The notes below the pieces were generated by a model. That model made no database searches. It saw only the letters and a program-made list of their open reading frames with translations, and had not been told where the DNA came from. A stretch of 64,000 nucleotides of DNA from a virus, in IMG/VR virus record IMGVR_UViG_3300034022_000278, positions 24,043 to 88,042 of that record. One strand, written 5' to 3'. The translations under genes and the position numbers were made by a program. The first letter of the stretch is position 1; every line of letters starts with the position of its first letter. Shown here one piece after another: positions 1,382 through 5,140 of this stretch.

Positions 1382-1616
1382 AGTAGAATCCTCTTGTTAT
1401 AGCTTAATCAAGAGGATTCTTTAAAGATATCACAATGAAACATCTAATAAATCAAAGTTATGAAACAAATATTAGTAGGCAATTATTGGATAAATGTAAA
1501 TGATTTAACATATAGTTATTCAAAATATCCAAAAAGAATCTTAGTAAAATATTAAATAAAAGATTAATTTAGTAAATAGAACTTGTAGTTCTGGGTAATA
1601 ATTTAAAAAGCACATT

Positions 1617-1871
1617 ATGGACTTTGAAAACGATTACATATATAGACTTGAGCTTGTCTTCGATGAAGATGATGTATTAGTCTATAATATTATCTCACCT
1701 GATGATGATGAGGTAATTAAAAACATTGAGGATGATCTATATTCTAAGTATTTACACAAAGAATCAGATAGATCTAAGTATAAATTTACCAAGCTTTGGA
1801 CTTTTGAAGCTGGTATAAAGATAGCGGTAATAGCTAATACAGCTATTAACCGAAAGTATGCATTAAACTAA
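1617..1871 (+). CDS. Hypothetical protein
   Basis: 84-aa acidic ORF. Confidence 0.65.
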   Translation: MDFENDYIYRLELVFDEDDVLVYNIISPDDDEVIKNIEDDLYSKYLHKESDRSKYKFTKLWTFEAGIKIAVIANTAINRKYALN

Positions 1872-1935
1872 GGATGCCACAGGACTAAACATTGATAAGC
1901 CTGTTTAAAAATTGGATGTACGTAGAAATACGTAA

Positions 1936-2018
1936 TATATTGTTGCCTTGAGAAAGCAAGACTAAAAACATGTAGAGACATAAACAGTCCTACACAATAT
2001 AAATGAGTTCTCAGCAAA
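1936..2018 (+). ncRNA. Kissing-loop RNA motif, copy 1
   Basis: ATATTGT/ACAATAT stem; hairpin with CTTGAGAAA loop; 3' GAGTTCTCAG complementary to that loop; paralog at 3765-3888. Confidence 0.55.
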
Positions 2019-2298
2019 TAGTTAATGTGTCACAGTCTATATATAATGTATAGAATACCTCTTACTATATGACCCTATTCTTGTATAATACAAGTCAAAG
2101 GGTGCTAAAAGTAATTAGTAATTCATAGGTAAGTTCTTGGTGGAAGAAGCGTGTTCCACTATCTTTTTTTAATTAAATAGAGTGAAATCTATTTATTTAC
2201 TGCGATAAACAGTTCTTTATTTTACCAGTAATGGTTGTTAGCACCGTCAAGAAAATACAACCAAATTACATTTTATGTACATGCTCGTGTATGTGAAA

Positions 2299-2312
2299 AG
2301 ACTTTATAAGTC
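2299..2312. repeat. 14-bp hairpin repeat copy 2 (AGACTTTATAAGTC)
   Basis: Identical to 1368-1381. Confidence 0.55.
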
Positions 2313-2365
2313 TGTGTTTTAGAGCAAAATCTATAAATTATTTATCTTTAAAAAACAAAATTATT

Positions 2366-2878
2366 ATGAAAAAAGTAACATTAGTATCAGCAAAAGGAGT
2401 AAAAGGAAACAAAGTGCAATTAACGTTTTCTCAAATTGTAGAAACGGGTAAAGCACCAACAGGTCTATTAGGCATCTTGAATGCAAGTGATGAAAGATTT
2501 AATCAGTCTAAGCCTCGTTTGGCTTGGTTGACTGCACAGCCTGCAGATGTAAAGCTTCAATTTGGTCTAGATGTTTCTGGATTAGCTGAAGGAGAAGAGT
2601 TAGAAATTGATATGGTTGATCCTAAAATTACGGGAGATGATCGTTCTTTGAATCTTCAAATTACAGAAACTACAAAAGGTAGTGACTATGATGTTGCAAA
2701 CTTTGAAACTCGTGCTAAAAGAGCAGGTAAAGATGGTGAATTCATTATGAGCAATGGTATGTATATCTATGTCAACACTACTGTTGTTGTAGGTGAGCCA
2801 AAGCACACTTTGATTGCAGACACAACTCGTCAAGCTGTTACAGGTAGTTCAGCAATTGCTGACGCATTAGGTATTTAA
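2366..2878 (+). CDS. Hypothetical protein, probably highly expressed
   Basis: 170-aa ORF with its own terminator and biased codon use. Confidence 0.85.
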   Translation: MKKVTLVSAKGVKGNKVQLTFSQIVETGKAPTGLLGILNASDERFNQSKPRLAWLTAQPADVKLQFGLDVSGLAEGEELEIDMVDPKITGDDRSLNLQITETTKGSDYDVANFETRAKRAGKDGEFIMSNGMYIYVNTTVVVGEPKHTLIADTTRQAVTGSSAIADALGI

Positions 2879-2888
2879 TATCTGAAGC

Positions 2889-2924
2889 AAAGGGGGAATA
2901 GTAAATCTATTCTCCCTTTTATTT
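2889..2924 (+). terminator. Rho-independent terminator
   Basis: AAAGGGGGAATAG/CTATTCTCCCTTT stem followed by T-rich tract. Confidence 0.8.
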
Positions 2925-2946
2925 TAATTACCTAAATAATCCCATC

Positions 2947-3210
2947 ATGCAAGAAACAAAACCAAGAGTAATTATTACTGAATTGGGAGTATACTTACGA
3001 GCAATAGAGCTTGAGTATAAGCCTAAAAATAATGAGCATAGAGCTCAATTAATAACTGATAACTTTCCTGTGCTGTGTCTTGAAGAAGACATTGAAGAAT
3101 ATGAGGAAATGTGCTATTATAGTAGCTTAGCAGAGAGCCAAGACTACGATTTAATAGGTAAAAGAGACAATTATTGTAGACAATTAGGAAGATCAAATCC
3201 TTTTTATTAA
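2947..3210 (+). CDS. Hypothetical protein
   Basis: 87-aa ORF. Confidence 0.7.
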   Translation: MQETKPRVIITELGVYLRAIELEYKPKNNEHRAQLITDNFPVLCLEEDIEEYEEMCYYSSLAESQDYDLIGKRDNYCRQLGRSNPFY

Positions 3211-3229
3211 ACATTTAAATATTAGGAAT

Positions 3230-3487
3230 ATGACAACACATTTAAGAGTATCAACTTACTATAATGATGAACATCCTCAAAGGATGATGAAAAGATTAGG
3301 TATTACCTATCAGCATTCAACACCACAAAGTATGGGTGACCAATGGTGGTTCTGGAATTGTGAAAATGTACCTGACCCTTTACCTGAGCATACTAGCATT
3401 TTGGAATGCAACGACCCTATGGAAATGATTGGTTGGGGACTATCAAAAGAGGACGCTGAAAAAATACGTGATTACACTTTGTTATAA
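3230..3487 (+). CDS. Hypothetical protein
   Basis: 85-aa ORF. Confidence 0.7.
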   Translation: MTTHLRVSTYYNDEHPQRMMKRLGITYQHSTPQSMGDQWWFWNCENVPDPLPEHTSILECNDPMEMIGWGLSKEDAEKIRDYTLL

Positions 3488-3764
3488 TTAAAATTAATGA
3501 ACTGTGAGTACCGATAATCCGCCAAATACATAATTATTTTATAGTTTTGGCACAGTATAAAATTACCCCGCTAGAAGTAAACAAATAATAAATGCCGCAC
3601 CTCTTGCGAGTGCTTAATGGATGACTTAACATCTACGGTAAATTGTTAGAATCCATATCAAGGTGGAGTTGTTTGTGGAAGGATATAAATAGAAATAATC
3701 CCGTCCTAGACGGTGTAAATACTAAACTACTATATTCAGCAACTTGGGCTGACAGGGTATGTTA

Positions 3765-3888
3765 TTGTGTTGTTCCCTTGAGAAAGGAGCACGAGCTATA
3801 ATTCATCAGCTATTGAAGAAGGTACATCGGAATAATGGTGTAGAGATTATATGCTGGTTTGTAACAACACAGAGGAGTTCTTAACCTC
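3765..3888 (+). ncRNA. Kissing-loop RNA motif, copy 2
   Basis: TGTGTTG/CAACACA stem; TTCC-CTTGAGAA-AGGAG hairpin; GAGG-AGTTCTTAA-CCTC hairpin whose loop pairs with TTGAGAA. Confidence 0.55.
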
Positions 3889-3893
3889 AACAT

Positions 3894-3969
3894 AGTGAGG
3901 TGGCGTAATGAGGCGAGGTTGCCGAGTCCTATATGGTTGCTTTACGGTTCGAGTCCGCCCTCACTGCCA
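3894..3969 (+). tRNA. tRNA-like RNA with encoded CCA, anticodon undetermined
   Basis: Acceptor AGTGAGG/CCTCACT + G + CCA; T-loop CGG-TTCGAGT-CCG; D and anticodon arms poorly formed. Confidence 0.55.
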
Positions 3970-4132
3970 TTAGCCCTCTGCCTAGCGCTGGGTATGGATC
4001 GAAGATAGGGATAGCCTCTTGAACGTTAGTTAGAATGTTTCGGCATTCTTTAATCAATGCGCACTACGCCTTCCGAATCGTGTGTCGGCACAGTTTGTAC
4101 GTTCTGGGGATAATACAAAGACGTACATTTTT

Positions 4133-4203
4133 AGTCAGGTGGTGTATTTGGTAAACACAACTAGTTTTTAGGAGGATAGCAGGTTCGATTCCTGTCCTGG
4201 CTA
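4133..4203 (+). tRNA. tRNA-like RNA with shortened anticodon arm
   Basis: Acceptor AGTCAGG/CCTGGCT, D arm GTGT/ACAC, T arm GCAGG-TTCGATT-CCTGT; anticodon arm only CTA/TAG. Confidence 0.65.
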
Positions 4204-4218
4204 CTAAAATTAAATGTT

Positions 4219-4320
4219 ATGAAAAATGAAAACTGGTGGAATGGTTTCCTAGTGGGAATTATTATCGGAGGTGTGATTGGAATAATTATACTTGATTTAG
4301 TTCAACGAGGAATACTGTAA
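4219..4320 (+). CDS. Small single-TM protein
   Basis: 33-aa ORF MKNENWWNGFLVGIIIGGVIGIIIL... Confidence 0.55.
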   Translation: MKNENWWNGFLVGIIIGGVIGIIILDLVQRGIL

Positions 4321-4327
4321 AGAAAAT

Positions 4328-4481
4328 AGTCAGGTGGCGGAAATATGAGAGACGCAAGAGGTAGAGTTTGGTCTGTAACAGGGATAACTGGTGAGGACAC
4401 ATCTAACAATTTCACGGAGGGTCTAAAAAAGTGAAAGCGGAAAACCTAAGTTACGTGCAGGGGCAGTTCCTGTCCTGACTA
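4328..4481 (+). ncRNA. tRNA-like RNA with ~100-nt multibranch domain replacing the anticodon arm
   Basis: Acceptor AGTCAGG/CCTGACT, D stem GCG/CGC, T stem GCAGG/CCTGT with atypical loop GGCAGTT; same ends as 4133-4203. Confidence 0.6.
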
Positions 4482-4591
4482 CTAATTAAATTAAATAACA
4501 ATGGAATATCTTATAATTGCAATTGTAGTATTTGCAGCATTTATTTTAAGTGAAGTAAATCACTAATTATTAACCATCTAAAACAAAAGTT

Positions 4592-5140
4592 ATGAATTAT
4601 AAATTTAATGAAGAGAAACTATCCTTTGAGGTATATACAAAGAATTATTTAAATGTAATTCTAATTGTATTATTTACTGCATTAGTATCAGTTAGTGCTA
4701 CATTATTAGTACAAACAAAAAAGTTAGATAGAATTAAATATGTAACTGAAGAAACAAGAATGTTGGTAATTCAACAAGAAAATGCGTTTAGTGAAGAAAA
4801 ATTGAGAGAATATATTATTGGACTTAATGTAAAGTTTCCTCACATAGTATTTGCTCAAGCTAAGTTAGAATCAGGTTATTTTAAGTCAACTATTTTTAGA
4901 GAAAATAATAACTTATTCGGTATGAAGATAGCAACTAGAAGACCTACTACTAACAAAGGTGAAAACAGAGGGCATGCTGCATTTGATTCATGGAAAGAGT
5001 CTGTTGTAGATTATGCATTCTATCAAGCTAGATACTTAGGGGATATTAGGACAGAGGCAGAGTATATACAATATCTTAAAGCTAACTATGCTGAAGATCC
5101 AAAGTATATAGAAAAAGTAATTAAATTAAGTAGAAAATGA
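4592..5140 (+). CDS. Membrane-anchored glucosaminidase/FlgJ-like (GH73) peptidoglycan hydrolase
   Basis: N-terminal TM; motifs AQAKLESG, NNLFGMK, YAEDPKY. Confidence 0.85.
   Translation: MNYKFNEEKLSFEVYTKNYLNVILIVLFTALVSVSATLLVQTKKLDRIKYVTEETRMLVIQQENAFSEEKLREYIIGLNVKFPHIVFAQAKLESGYFKSTIFRENNNLFGMKIATRRPTTNKGENRGHAAFDSWKESVVDYAFYQARYLGDIRTEAEYIQYLKANYAEDPKYIEKVIKLSRK

What the first reader, a model, noticed from the sequence alone, without database searches (positions are those of the whole stretch)
1936..3888. Two diverged copies of a kissing-loop RNA (CTTGAGAAA loop / GAGTTCTYAR loop)
Seen: copies at 1936-2018 and 3765-3888 share the layout outer stem - hairpin with CTTGAGAA loop - variable insert - outer stem close - second hairpin with AGTTCT(C/T)A(G/A) loop. 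Stems differ in sequence but still pair (ATATTGT/ACAATAT vs TGTGTTG/CAACACA; TTGC/GCAA vs TTCC/GGAG). The 7-bp loop-loop helix is kept with a G-U at a different position in each copy, i.e. covariation inside one genome. Copy 2 ends 5 nt before a tRNA-like RNA. I cannot assign it to a named family; it could be a ribozyme, an exonuclease-blocking RNA or a protein sponge.
Basis: seen in the sequence. Interest (0 to 1): 0.7.

Follow-up and report, generated by a model that had tools for sequence, protein, structure and literature searches.

The report
Knotted RNA family of phages
The two flagged stretches are genuine copies, of two different subtypes, of a widespread but uncatalogued folded RNA that lake and marine phages carry among their tRNA-type genes; its shape is now well supported but its job is still unknown.

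Summary
Both copies are real. A covariance model built only from relatives of copy 2 finds copy 1 at 47.6 bits; the next best window hit scores 16.4.

They belong to one phage RNA family that is absent from Rfam 15. I collected 186 hits, 152 of them distinct, in 162 loci. The shared core is a closing helix, a first hairpin, a variable insert, and a strand just 3' of the closing helix that pairs with the first hairpin's loop. Relatives keep this loop pairing through changes on both sides at 5 of 7 pairs.

- **Copy 2 (class A):** a ~125-nt unit that ends 5 nt before a tRNA-like gene.
- **Copy 1 (class B):** the core of a ~230-nt RNA gene with its own terminator.

The cultured Cellulophaga phage phi14:2 has a class B copy. 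It lies in a long intergenic region of the kind reported as abundantly transcribed early, with function undetermined.

Function is inferred only. My best guess is a stable trans-acting decoy or scaffold. This scan has already reported this family on other DNA.

The parts
1880..2108 (+). Whole class B RNA (copy 1 is its core): H1, H2, P1-P2-Pvar junction, pairing strand, P4, P5, closing GGGTGCTAA
   Evidence: The same order of elements is found in 27 distinct full-length relatives, including phi14:2.
1880..1903 (+). H1 hairpin CAGG/CCTG with a loop containing AAACATTGA
   Evidence: The loop is shared with L133, L193, L207, L110, L118 and L111, which have different stems (GTGG/CCAC, CTCG/CGAG).
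1919..1934 (+). H2 hairpin TACGT/ACGTA, loop AGAAAT
   Evidence: Relatives keep a 5-bp stem of other letters (CTATC/GGTAG, CACAT/ATGTG, TTTAC/GTAAA) around an AGTAAT or AGAAAT loop.
1937..2000 (+). Copy 1 core: P1 ATATTG/CAATAT enclosing the P2 hairpin (1943-1959, loop 1947-1955) and the variable insert (1960-1994)
   Evidence: R1 alignment at 47.6 bits. Relative to the family consensus, P1 has two pairs changed on both sides and P2 has one.
2008..2014 (+). Copy 1 pairing strand TTCTCAG, complementary to loop positions 1948-1954
   Evidence: Read directly from the sequence. Two-sided covariation of this helix is seen in relatives.
2016..2070 (+). P4 long-range stem (ATAGT 2018-2022 / ACTAT 2064-2068) around a variable insert
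   Evidence: The consensus is AAGTAGTTA...TAACTACGT. L119, L133, L115, L173 and the window carry other letters that still pair.
2071..2108 (+). GACCCTA, P5 hairpin (CCCT 2073-2076 / AGGG 2099-2102; CTTGTA/TACAAG) and GGGTGCTAA
   Evidence: 27 of 27 full-length class B rows carry a GACCC[TA]A ... AGGGTGCTA frame (26 GACCCTA, L186 GACCCAA), which was required by the search expression; the inner stem varies.
2138..2170 (+). Terminator-like hairpin plus T run, the probable 3' end of the class B gene
   Evidence: Terminator scan. A similar element in L003 matches at 80% over 55 nt.
3764..3892 (+). Whole class A unit (copy 2)
   Evidence: R1 scores it at 71.6 bits; note that it is in the training set.
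3766..3871 (+). Copy 2 P1 (TGTGTTG/CAACACA) enclosing the P2 hairpin (3773-3789, loop 3777-3785) and a 75-nt variable insert (3790-3864)
3872..3888 (+). P3 hairpin GAGG/CCTC. Loop positions 3878-3884 (TTCTTAA) pair with loop positions 3778-3784
3894..3969 (+). tRNA-like RNA ending in CCA, 5 nt after the unit. Its 5' end probably sets the 3' end of the class A RNA
   Evidence: It is 96% identical over 74 nt in L008. ARAGORN finds nothing here. In 48 of 103 distinct class A units a tRNA or an AGTCAGG-type tRNA-like gene follows.

Best explanation
Both stretches are genes, or gene parts, of one uncatalogued phage RNA family.

**Shown: the shared core.** A 6-7 bp closing helix (P1) runs directly into a 4-bp hairpin (P2). 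A variable insert follows, then the return strand of P1, then 5-7 nt, then a strand that pairs over 5-7 bp with the P2 loop. This locks the fold as a pseudoknot or kissing complex.

**Shown: copy 2 is class A.** The pairing strand sits in a small hairpin. The ~125-nt unit lies in a row of non-coding RNAs and tRNA-like genes and ends 5 nt before the next tRNA-like RNA.

**Shown: copy 1 is class B.** The same core is embedded in a ~230-nt RNA that has two 5' hairpins, two further 3' helices and a terminator-like end. It is the counterpart of an RNA in Cellulophaga phage phi14:2.

**Inferred.**
- Class A units are cut out of a long early transcript by the tRNA-processing enzymes: RNase P at the following tRNA-like 5' end, and 3' trimming of a preceding tRNA.
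- The knotted fold makes the RNAs long-lived.
- They act in trans as a decoy or scaffold for a conserved host or phage partner. I give this functional part about 0.35.

The confidence figure below is for family identity and fold.
For: **Family membership**
- R1 scores copy 1 at 47.6 bits without copy 1 being in the model; the background maximum is 16.4 bits.
- There are 74 hits in 80 sources and 112 hits in 100 sources. Together that is 186 hits, 152 distinct, in 162 loci: 103 class A, 43 class B and 6 unclassified.

**Fold**
- On 96 distinct rows fetched with a pattern that leaves both loops free, 95.6% of cells pair, against 39-54% when the partner is slid by 1-3 columns.
- 5 of the 7 loop-helix pairs show changes on both sides (UA, GC, AU, UA, CG types).
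- 0 of 500 shuffles reach the observed covariation score.
- Examples: L134 has CTTTGGAAA with TTCCAAG, L187 has CTTGAGCAA with GTGCTCAG, and L109 has CTTGATAAA with GATTATCAT.
- P1 and P2 vary compatibly in copy 1, in phi14:2 (TCAC/GTGG), in L017, L034 and L051 (TTCA/TGAA) and in L059 (CTCC/GGAG).

**Context**
- 48 of 103 class A units are followed by a tRNA (24, within 12 nt) or an AGTCAGG-type tRNA-like gene (24, within 8 nt).
- 77 of 103 class A units have an ARAGORN tRNA within 2.5 kb.

**Not coding**
- Unit lengths fall 50/53/49 over the three residues modulo 3.

**phi14:2**
- blastn gives E 2e-9 and R1 gives 46 bits.
- The full class B frame is visible at L210 2511-2740.
- The bioRxiv preprint 10.1101/2020.03.07.982082 (passages read) reports two long intergenic regions transcribed rightward. 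They are present at the earliest sampled time, stay abundant, run above most coding genes, and have function 'to be determined'.

**RNA libraries**
- Metatranscriptome contigs from two freshwater runs and one marine run hold class A and class B relatives, plus pieces identical to window 3579-3715, 3892-3965 and 3993-4142.
Against: - No experiment bears on function.
- The loci were fetched with patterns that fix parts of the motif: P1 3' plus P3, and P1 plus P2 stems. The near-invariance of those helices is therefore partly by construction.
- Related contigs are counted as separate rows, so cell counts overstate the number of independent events.
- L176 carries an unchanged loop with a changed partner, giving 2 mismatches.
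- The outer loop pairs are often unpaired: 41 of 92 cells at pair 16-159 and 12 of 88 at pair 22-152.
- The third helix (variable insert) is only weakly supported: mean z -0.9, and 15% of 136 inserts below -2.
- I could not check the gene numbering of the phi14:2 paper (supplements are closed). Equating the RNA with the reported 'g004-g005 junction' transcript rests on there being just two long gaps in that part of the record.
- Logan contigs in RNA libraries show presence, not transcription, ends or strand.
- No conserved neighbouring protein points to a partner. The commonest protein cluster occurs in 24 of 162 loci.
Confidence: 0.75

Rival explanations
1. It is a cis-acting processing or stability module. 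The knotted domain serves only the long precursor: it spaces tRNA-type genes for RNase P and RNase Z, and blocks exonucleases from chewing into neighbouring RNAs.
For: - Class A units sit 3-6 nt before the next tRNA(-like) 5' end in 48 of 103 distinct units.
- Some directly follow a tRNA 3' end.
- The 3' hairpin locked by the loop contact is at the very 3' end of the unit.
- The topology (a hairpin loop pairing with the strand 3' of the closing helix) loosely recalls exonuclease-resistant viral RNAs. That comparison is recalled, not tested.
Against: - Class B uses the same core inside a free-standing RNA gene with its own terminator.
- Only 11 of 43 class B units have any tRNA within 2.5 kb.
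- In phi14:2 a class B copy lies in one of two long gaps that probably correspond to the intergenic regions the preprint reports as abundant throughout infection, which suggests a product rather than a spacer.
- 55 of 103 class A units are not followed by a recognisable tRNA-type gene.
Confidence: 0.25
2. The complementary loops pair between molecules, not within one. The units would then be self-assembling building blocks (dimers, rings or chains), as in phi29 prohead RNA or the ROOL and GOLLD cages.
For: - Covariation cannot tell intra- from intermolecular pairing. For ROOL, a kissing loop first read as tertiary proved to be quaternary (PMC12286853, passages read).
- If P3, P1 and P2 stack end to end, their loops point away from each other. 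This is inference.
- Both window copies use the same loop code, so they could also pair with each other.
Against: - In class B the partner strand is single-stranded and wedged between P1 and P4 (1 nt before P4).
- The spacing from P1 is the same 5-7 nt in both classes. That fits a compact intramolecular pseudoknot.
- There are no data on oligomeric state.
Confidence: 0.12
3. It is a self-cleaving ribozyme of a new class that helps to cut up the RNA operon.
For: - It is small, pseudoknotted and highly conserved.
- It lies in phage regions where self-cleaving RNAs are common.
Against: - No Rfam ribozyme family matches, even at E<=10.
- Conservation is not concentrated in junction nucleotides as it is in known small ribozymes (recalled).
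- tRNA-processing enzymes already explain the excision.
- Nothing here shows cleavage.
Confidence: 0.1
4. It is a DNA-level element or chance repeat. The conserved ends would be a homing or recombination site spread by the homing endonucleases of tRNA arrays, with no RNA function.
For: - HNH and GIY-YIG endonuclease genes are the commonest neighbours, in 24, 21 and 20 of 162 loci.
- Near-identical ends occur in very different phage contigs, 4 to 322 kb long.
Against: - Two-sided changes keep three helices and the loop helix paired.
- All hits run on the same strand as the neighbouring tRNAs.
- Relatives are present in RNA libraries, and phi14:2 carries a copy in what is probably its reported transcribed region.
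- Endonuclease genes show no fixed distance to the units, apart from one cluster at 183-335 nt in 15 of 20 members that are probably related contigs.
Confidence: 0.03

Closest known systems
Abundant early 'long non-coding RNAs' of Cellulophaga crAss-like phage phi14:2 (Drobysheva et al., bioRxiv 10.1101/2020.03.07.982082; passages read)
   Same: phi14:2 record positions ~3119-3360 carry the complete class B frame: P1, P2 (TCAC/GTGG), the CTTGAGAAA loop, the AAATGAGTTCTCAG strand, P4, GACCCTA and GGGTGCTAA. This lies in one of two long gaps of the early region, on the rightward strand, like copy 1 here.
   Different: The paper gives no sequence family, fold or function. I inferred its gene numbering (the supplement was not seen). 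Copy 1 differs in P1, P2 and P4 letters, and its H1 hairpin lies much closer to the core.
Phage T4 RNAC and RNAD (rnaC 139 nt, rnaD 119 nt) in the T4 tRNA cluster
   Same: They are small RNAs encoded next to phage tRNA genes on the same strand, with biological roles unknown (annotation; review PMC3014915, passage read). rnaD holds a hairpin TTCC-CTGAGTAA-GGAA that resembles P2.
   Different: R1 gives only 13 bits on rnaD (E 0.077 over 3 kb). No partner strand for the loop lies 3' of the closing helix, and the MFE fold uses that loop otherwise. This is an analogue by context and not a shown relative.
GOLLD (Rfam) and ROOL (Rfam) large phage RNAs
   Same: They are encoded in phages, often near tRNA islands, with function unknown, and are held together by kissing loops and pseudoknots (PMC12286853, passages read).
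   Different: They are 500-800+ nt RNAs with unrelated sequence and secondary structure. Neither Rfam model matches the window. Cage formation is not known for this family.
Exonuclease-resistant viral RNAs (xrRNA) and H-type pseudoknots
   Same: A hairpin loop pairs with a strand just 3' of the helix that closes a three-way junction. This comparison is recalled and not tested.
   Different: In flaviviral xrRNAs the pairing loop belongs to the hairpin next to the 3' strand of P1, and a second pseudoknot with the 5' end forms the ring (recalled). Here it is the first hairpin, and no 5'-end pseudoknot was seen.

Membership tests
Uncatalogued 'kissing-loop core' family (class A / class B; includes the phi14:2 RNA) | P1 closing helix running directly into the P2 hairpin, a variable insert, and the P1 return strand | tested here: met
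   R1 scores copy 2 at 71.6 bits and copy 1 at 47.6 bits. Copy 1 was not in the training set.
Uncatalogued 'kissing-loop core' family (class A / class B; includes the phi14:2 RNA) | P2 loop complementary to a strand 5-7 nt after P1 | tested here: met
   Both copies give 7 bp with one G-U. The helix covaries in relatives.
Class B full-length RNA | P4 long-range stem, GACCCTA, P5 and a closing AGGGTGCTA | tested here: met
   The window row at 1994-2108 is among the 27 distinct rows.
Class A unit | Pairing strand inside a 4-bp hairpin (GAGG/CCTC), followed within a few nt by a tRNA-type gene | tested here: met
   Copy 2 has the hairpin at 3872-3888 and the tRNA-like RNA from 3894. Copy 1 does not meet this feature (2 bp only).
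Any Rfam 15 family (including twister, pistol, hatchet, hammerhead, HDV-like, GOLLD, ROOL, tRNA, tmRNA) | Match to the family covariance model | tested here: not met
   There is no match overlapping either copy at the gathering score or at E<=10. There is also none at the units of 12 class B loci.
T4 RNAC/RNAD | Sequence and structure similarity | tested here: inconclusive
   R1 gives 13 bits on rnaD, E 0.077 over 3 kb.
T4 RNAC/RNAD | Small stable RNA processed from the tRNA-cluster transcript | not testable with these tools
   The position among tRNA-type genes is met for class A. Stability and processing need end-mapped RNA data.
tRNA | Cloverleaf recognised by ARAGORN or the Rfam tRNA model | tested here: not met
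   ARAGORN finds 0 genes in the window. The only Rfam tRNA match is at 4133-4203.
Self-assembling kissing-loop RNAs (pRNA, ROOL, GOLLD) | Intermolecular loop-loop pairing and a defined oligomer | not testable with these tools
   Covariation cannot separate intra- from intermolecular pairing.

The most novel reading that the evidence does not exclude
The conserved loop pairing is intermolecular. Class A and class B RNAs, which share one loop code in this genome, would assemble head-to-tail into RNA-only dimers, rings or chains. These could tether the attached tRNA-like RNAs. This would be a small-RNA counterpart of the ROOL and GOLLD cages and of phi29 prohead RNA, made early and in bulk by crAss-like and other aquatic phages.
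Probability: 0.12. Interest if true: 0.85.

Novelty: new variant of a known kind. Interest (0 to 1): 0.55.

Why it matters
**A large unstudied family.** Phage tRNA clusters have long been known to hold small RNAs whose roles are unknown. T4 RNAC and RNAD are the classic case, and GOLLD and ROOL are more recent ones. This family is widespread: at least 152 distinct units, in contigs from 4 to 322 kb, from lake and marine samples.

**A tractable model.** The family is absent from Rfam. It has a clear fold supported by covariation, and a member in a cultured, tractable crAss-like phage. That copy lies in what is probably the early, abundant and persistent intergenic transcript reported for that phage. 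Function can therefore be tested directly.

**What this window adds.**
- The tRNA-array unit (class A) and the long early RNA (class B) share one core.
- Both subtypes can coexist in one genome.

**Practical use.** A model of the family would stop annotation pipelines from calling spurious small ORFs over it, as happened in the GenBank record of phi14:2.

Tried and rejected
**Approaches that led nowhere**
- Single-sequence folding was not informative: z -1.94 and -1.33 on the + strand, with similar values on the - strand.
- Motif counts in the window were at chance level.
- A first spacing pattern on the own record found nothing because I had set the gap too long.
- blastn of 1500-4600 against GenBank phages found no match.
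- Orthologous gaps next to homologues of ORF 2366-2878 (15 loci) hold no copy 1. Only L003 holds a copy 2.
- Of the 23 stretches found with the 17-mer TGGGCTGACAGGGTATG, only L033 (the L003 contig), L017 and L034 were real relatives; the other 20 were chance.
- With GGAGTTGTTTNNGGAAGGA, L039, L041 and L042 were chance matches in coding DNA.
- A class A query against GenBank phages gave 41 records, all short and with E>=0.9.
- In one search the 154 Staphylococcus and 3 Sodalis records were rejected as chance. The listed ones cover 12% of the query at E 0.007-0.3.

**Bacterial and archaeal genomes**
- The loop-neutral pattern matched 74 stretches. My own estimate of chance for uniform composition is about 67.
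- Only 5 carry family loops (L219, L228, L256, L260, L268). All are MAG contigs and all are class B type.
- I therefore reject a cellular origin.

**Readings considered and rejected**
- **One large RNA spanning 3563-3888:** rejected. The upstream module occurs without the unit in L099 and L100, and the unit occurs directly after tRNAs.
- **Coding:** rejected on length classes.
- **A leader of homing-endonuclease genes:** rejected, because there is no fixed distance.
- **A conserved partner protein gene:** none found. The top clusters occur in 24, 22, 21 and 20 of 162 loci.

**Other limits**
- My regex classifier mis-parsed the units (16 instead of more than 100). I replaced it with the CM alignments.
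- In the RNA runs, parts of the stretch without cover (for example X14 at 2005-2105) prove nothing.
- Supplements of the phi14:2 preprint and of the 10,006-candidate list (PMC10690425, passages read) were closed. The family may be listed there unnamed.
- Searches for a published description were. None named this family.
Full report
**Setting.** The window is the last 64 kb of an 88-kb IMG/VR virus record. Its DNA polymerase is closest to those of crAss-like phages, at 39-40% identity over the full length. Very large minus-strand ORFs fill 29-59 kb. The same DNA occurs in lake-water metagenomes. The first 4.5 kb is gene-poor. Copy 1 lies in the gap 1872-2365. Copy 2 lies in the ORF-poor stretch 3488-4591.

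**The observation.** The exception is the 'second hairpin' of copy 1, which has only two possible pairs. On their own the motifs are no more frequent than chance, and single-sequence folding is unremarkable. Neither Rfam 15 (gathering score and E<=10) nor ARAGORN gives anything at either copy.

**Finding relatives.**
- Homologues of the neighbouring 170-aa ORF gave 15 loci. Only L003 has a copy 2 counterpart, and none has copy 1.
- Aligning the window with L003 showed long conserved blocks upstream of copy 2.
- The 3' part of copy 2, written as a pattern, then matched 60 stretches of viral contigs between 4 and 322 kb.
- Among the loci then held, this gave 65 matches. Each has the same 5' half (GTGTTG or a one-mismatch variant, then a P2-type hairpin, mostly TTCC-loop-GGAA) 50-160 nt upstream, apart from one cut by a contig end. 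They collapse to 44 distinct units.

**The model.**
- R1 was built from these 44 units with helices P1, P2 and P3.
- It finds copy 2 at 71.6 bits. Copy 1, which was not in the training set, scores 47.6 bits (E 2.4e-7). The next window hit scores 16.4 bits.
- The other 24 kb of the record has no further copy.
- Whole-record searches of four IMG/VR relatives and phi14:2 give 1-3 copies per record.

**Two subtypes.**
- I then used a pattern that fixes only the P1 and P2 stems and leaves both loops and the 3' module free.
- These fall into two kinds.
  - **Class A** continues after P1 with A, then a 4-bp hairpin whose loop ends in TTCTCA(A/T), then AAA. Copy 2 is of this kind.
  - **Class B** continues with AAATGAGTTCTCAG, then C, then a long-range stem. 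Copy 1 is of this kind.
- Over all loci searched with R1 there are 186 hits, 152 distinct, in 162 loci: 103 class A, 43 class B and 6 unclassified. L208 and L209 were not searched.

**The fold.**
- In the first set, whose P3 loop was fixed by the search pattern, the loop helix shows only one-sided changes (G-C to G-U, A-U to G-U).
- In the loop-neutral set (112 hits, 96 distinct rows), 95.6% of cells pair, against 39-54% with slid partners.
- In that set 5 of the 7 loop-helix pairs show changes on both sides, and no shuffle of 500 reaches the covariation score.
- Individual cases:
  - L134 has two adjacent pairs exchanged.
  - L187 and L197 change A-U to C-G.
  - L109 changes G-C to U-A.
  - L181 (second copy) has two exchanged pairs plus a C-G in P1.
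- Against the model: L176 has two mismatches, and the two outermost pairs are often open.
- P1 and P2 vary compatibly wherever the search pattern did not fix them: copy 1, phi14:2, L017, L034, L051, L059, L057 and L053.
- These counts are of sequences and not of independent events. The search patterns inflate the apparent invariance of the helices.
- The variable insert (20-113 nt, median 39, 136 distinct) folds only slightly better than shuffles.

**Class B is a larger RNA.**
- Twenty-seven distinct sequences, including the window and phi14:2, share the same order of elements:
  1. Hairpin H1, with a loop containing AAACATTGA.
  2. Hairpin H2, with loop AGTAAT or AGAAAT and freely varying stem letters.
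  3. The core.
  4. Stem P4 (AAGTAGTTA...TAACTACGT, with covarying variants).
  5. GACCCTA.
  6. Hairpin P5.
  7. AGGGTGCTA.
- In the window this spans 1880-2108. A terminator-like hairpin with a T run follows at 2138-2170.

**Class A is a free-standing unit.**
- It occurs directly after tRNA 3' ends, after another unit, or after several unrelated conserved modules.
- The module upstream of copy 2 (3563-3759) occurs without the unit in L099 and L100.
- 48 of 103 distinct class A units are followed by an ARAGORN tRNA (24) or an AGTCAGG-type tRNA-like gene (24).
- 77 of 103 have a tRNA within 2.5 kb, against 11 of 43 class B units.

**Cultured relative and expression.**
- Notes of this scan on other genomes pointed to Cellulophaga phage phi14:2, and I tested that lead.
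- blastn gives E 2e-9 and R1 gives 46 bits. The whole class B frame can be read in the record.
- It lies in a 685-nt gap that GenBank fills with three tiny minus-strand ORFs.
- The phi14:2 preprint (passages read) states that two long intergenic regions are transcribed rightward, above most coding genes, from the earliest time point and without later decline. It says their functions remain to be determined. I could not verify its gene numbering.
- For the window itself, contigs of two freshwater metatranscriptomes and one marine metatranscriptome contain class A and class B relatives with other variable inserts. They also contain pieces identical to 3579-3715, 3892-3965 and 3993-4142. This shows presence in RNA libraries, not transcription, ends or strand.

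**Distribution.**
- GenBank phages other than phi14:2 gave no credible match.
- Among one genome for each of 185,579 prokaryote species, the loop-neutral pattern matched at about the chance rate. Only 5 matches are real, all in MAG contigs. The family looks phage-borne.

**Function.**
- Nothing here tests it.
- The commonest neighbouring proteins are homing endonucleases and an unknown 174-aa protein. Each is found in at most 24 of 162 loci, and none lies at a fixed distance apart from one HNH/HTH cluster at 183-335 nt in 15 of its 20 members, probably related contigs.
- I favour a stable, trans-acting decoy or scaffold RNA (about 0.35). My reason is that the same core sits in a free-standing gene with its own terminator-like end, and that the phi14:2 copy lies in what is probably one of the abundant, persistent early transcripts reported for that phage.
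- A purely cis-acting processing or stability module (0.25), intermolecular assembly (0.12) and a ribozyme (0.10) remain open.

**Comparison with known RNAs.**
- The closest published object is the anonymous phi14:2 transcript.
- T4 RNAC and RNAD are analogues by context. Their roles are unknown (PMC3014915). R1 gives 13 bits on rnaD, which holds a P2-like hairpin.
- GOLLD and ROOL share the phage and tRNA-island context and the use of kissing loops (PMC12286853), but not sequence or size.

**Verdict.**
- The family is uncatalogued, but this scan has already met it on other DNA.
- This window adds two points: both subtypes in one genome, and a clean test of the loop pairing.

Noticed in passing
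window 3563-3759: This is a separate conserved ~195-nt RNA module. It runs from ATTACCC.GC..GAAG.AAACAAATA through TAGAATCCA and GGAGTTGTTT to CTTGG.(C/G)TGACAGGGTA. It is shared with L003, L017, L040, L054, L099, L100 and L102. In L099 and L100 it is not followed by a class A unit. An RNA-library contig identical to 3579-3715 has adapter-like loose ends.
   Followed up: partly
window 3540-3562: The block TATAGTTTTGGCACAGTATAAAA directly precedes the module above and is near-identical in L003 and L099. It contains TAGTTTTG, which fits the TAnnTTTG -7 box of Bacteroidota promoters (motif recalled). It may be the start of the RNA operon. In relatives' contigs, position 3562 is joined directly to 3892 or 3766, so the modules are gained and lost as blocks.
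   Followed up: no
The first is 96% identical in L008. The second reaches 39.9 bits on the Rfam tRNA model but has a 3-bp 'anticodon stem', and ARAGORN rejects it. The AGTCAGG-type relatives in L003, L017 and L034 share their ends and have quite different middles.
   Followed up: partly
window 3976-4132: Another conserved non-coding RNA lies between the two tRNA-like genes. It is near-identical in L034 545-715. RNA-library contigs cover 3993-4142 (no differences) and 3971-4132.
   Followed up: no
window 2126-2170; L003 5796-5850: A terminator-like element with a conserved sequence, not only a conserved shape (TAGGTAAG.TC...GTGG.AGA...CCACTATCTTTTTT), recurs in the window and twice in L003.
   Followed up: no
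L210 (phi14:2) 3850-3885; L152 after its class B RNA: The second long gap of phi14:2 ends with a T-arm plus acceptor-like sequence. In L152, class B is followed by a sequence that looks like a tmRNA 5' end (features recalled). A scan note also says the family often sits before phage tmRNA genes.
   Followed up: no
L176 3998-4221 (-): An Rfam group I intron (94.8 bits) lies about 500 nt downstream of a class B RNA in a stretch with no obvious host gene.
   Followed up: no
L285 (T4) 1554-1672 (-), rnaD: T4 rnaD contains TTCC-CTGAGTAA-GGAA flanked by TGATG...CATCA, resembling P2 and P1 of the family. The score is only 13 bits, so this may be coincidence.
   Followed up: partly
L210 2488-2813 (phi14:2 gp007-gp009): The GenBank record annotates three 34-39-aa minus-strand 'hypothetical proteins' over the class B RNA. 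The RefSeq copy has removed features there.
   Followed up: no
162 loci with family hits: HNH and GIY-YIG/NUMOD3 homing-endonuclease genes are the most frequent neighbours, at 24, 21 and 20 loci. An unknown 174-aa protein recurs in 22 loci.
   Followed up: partly
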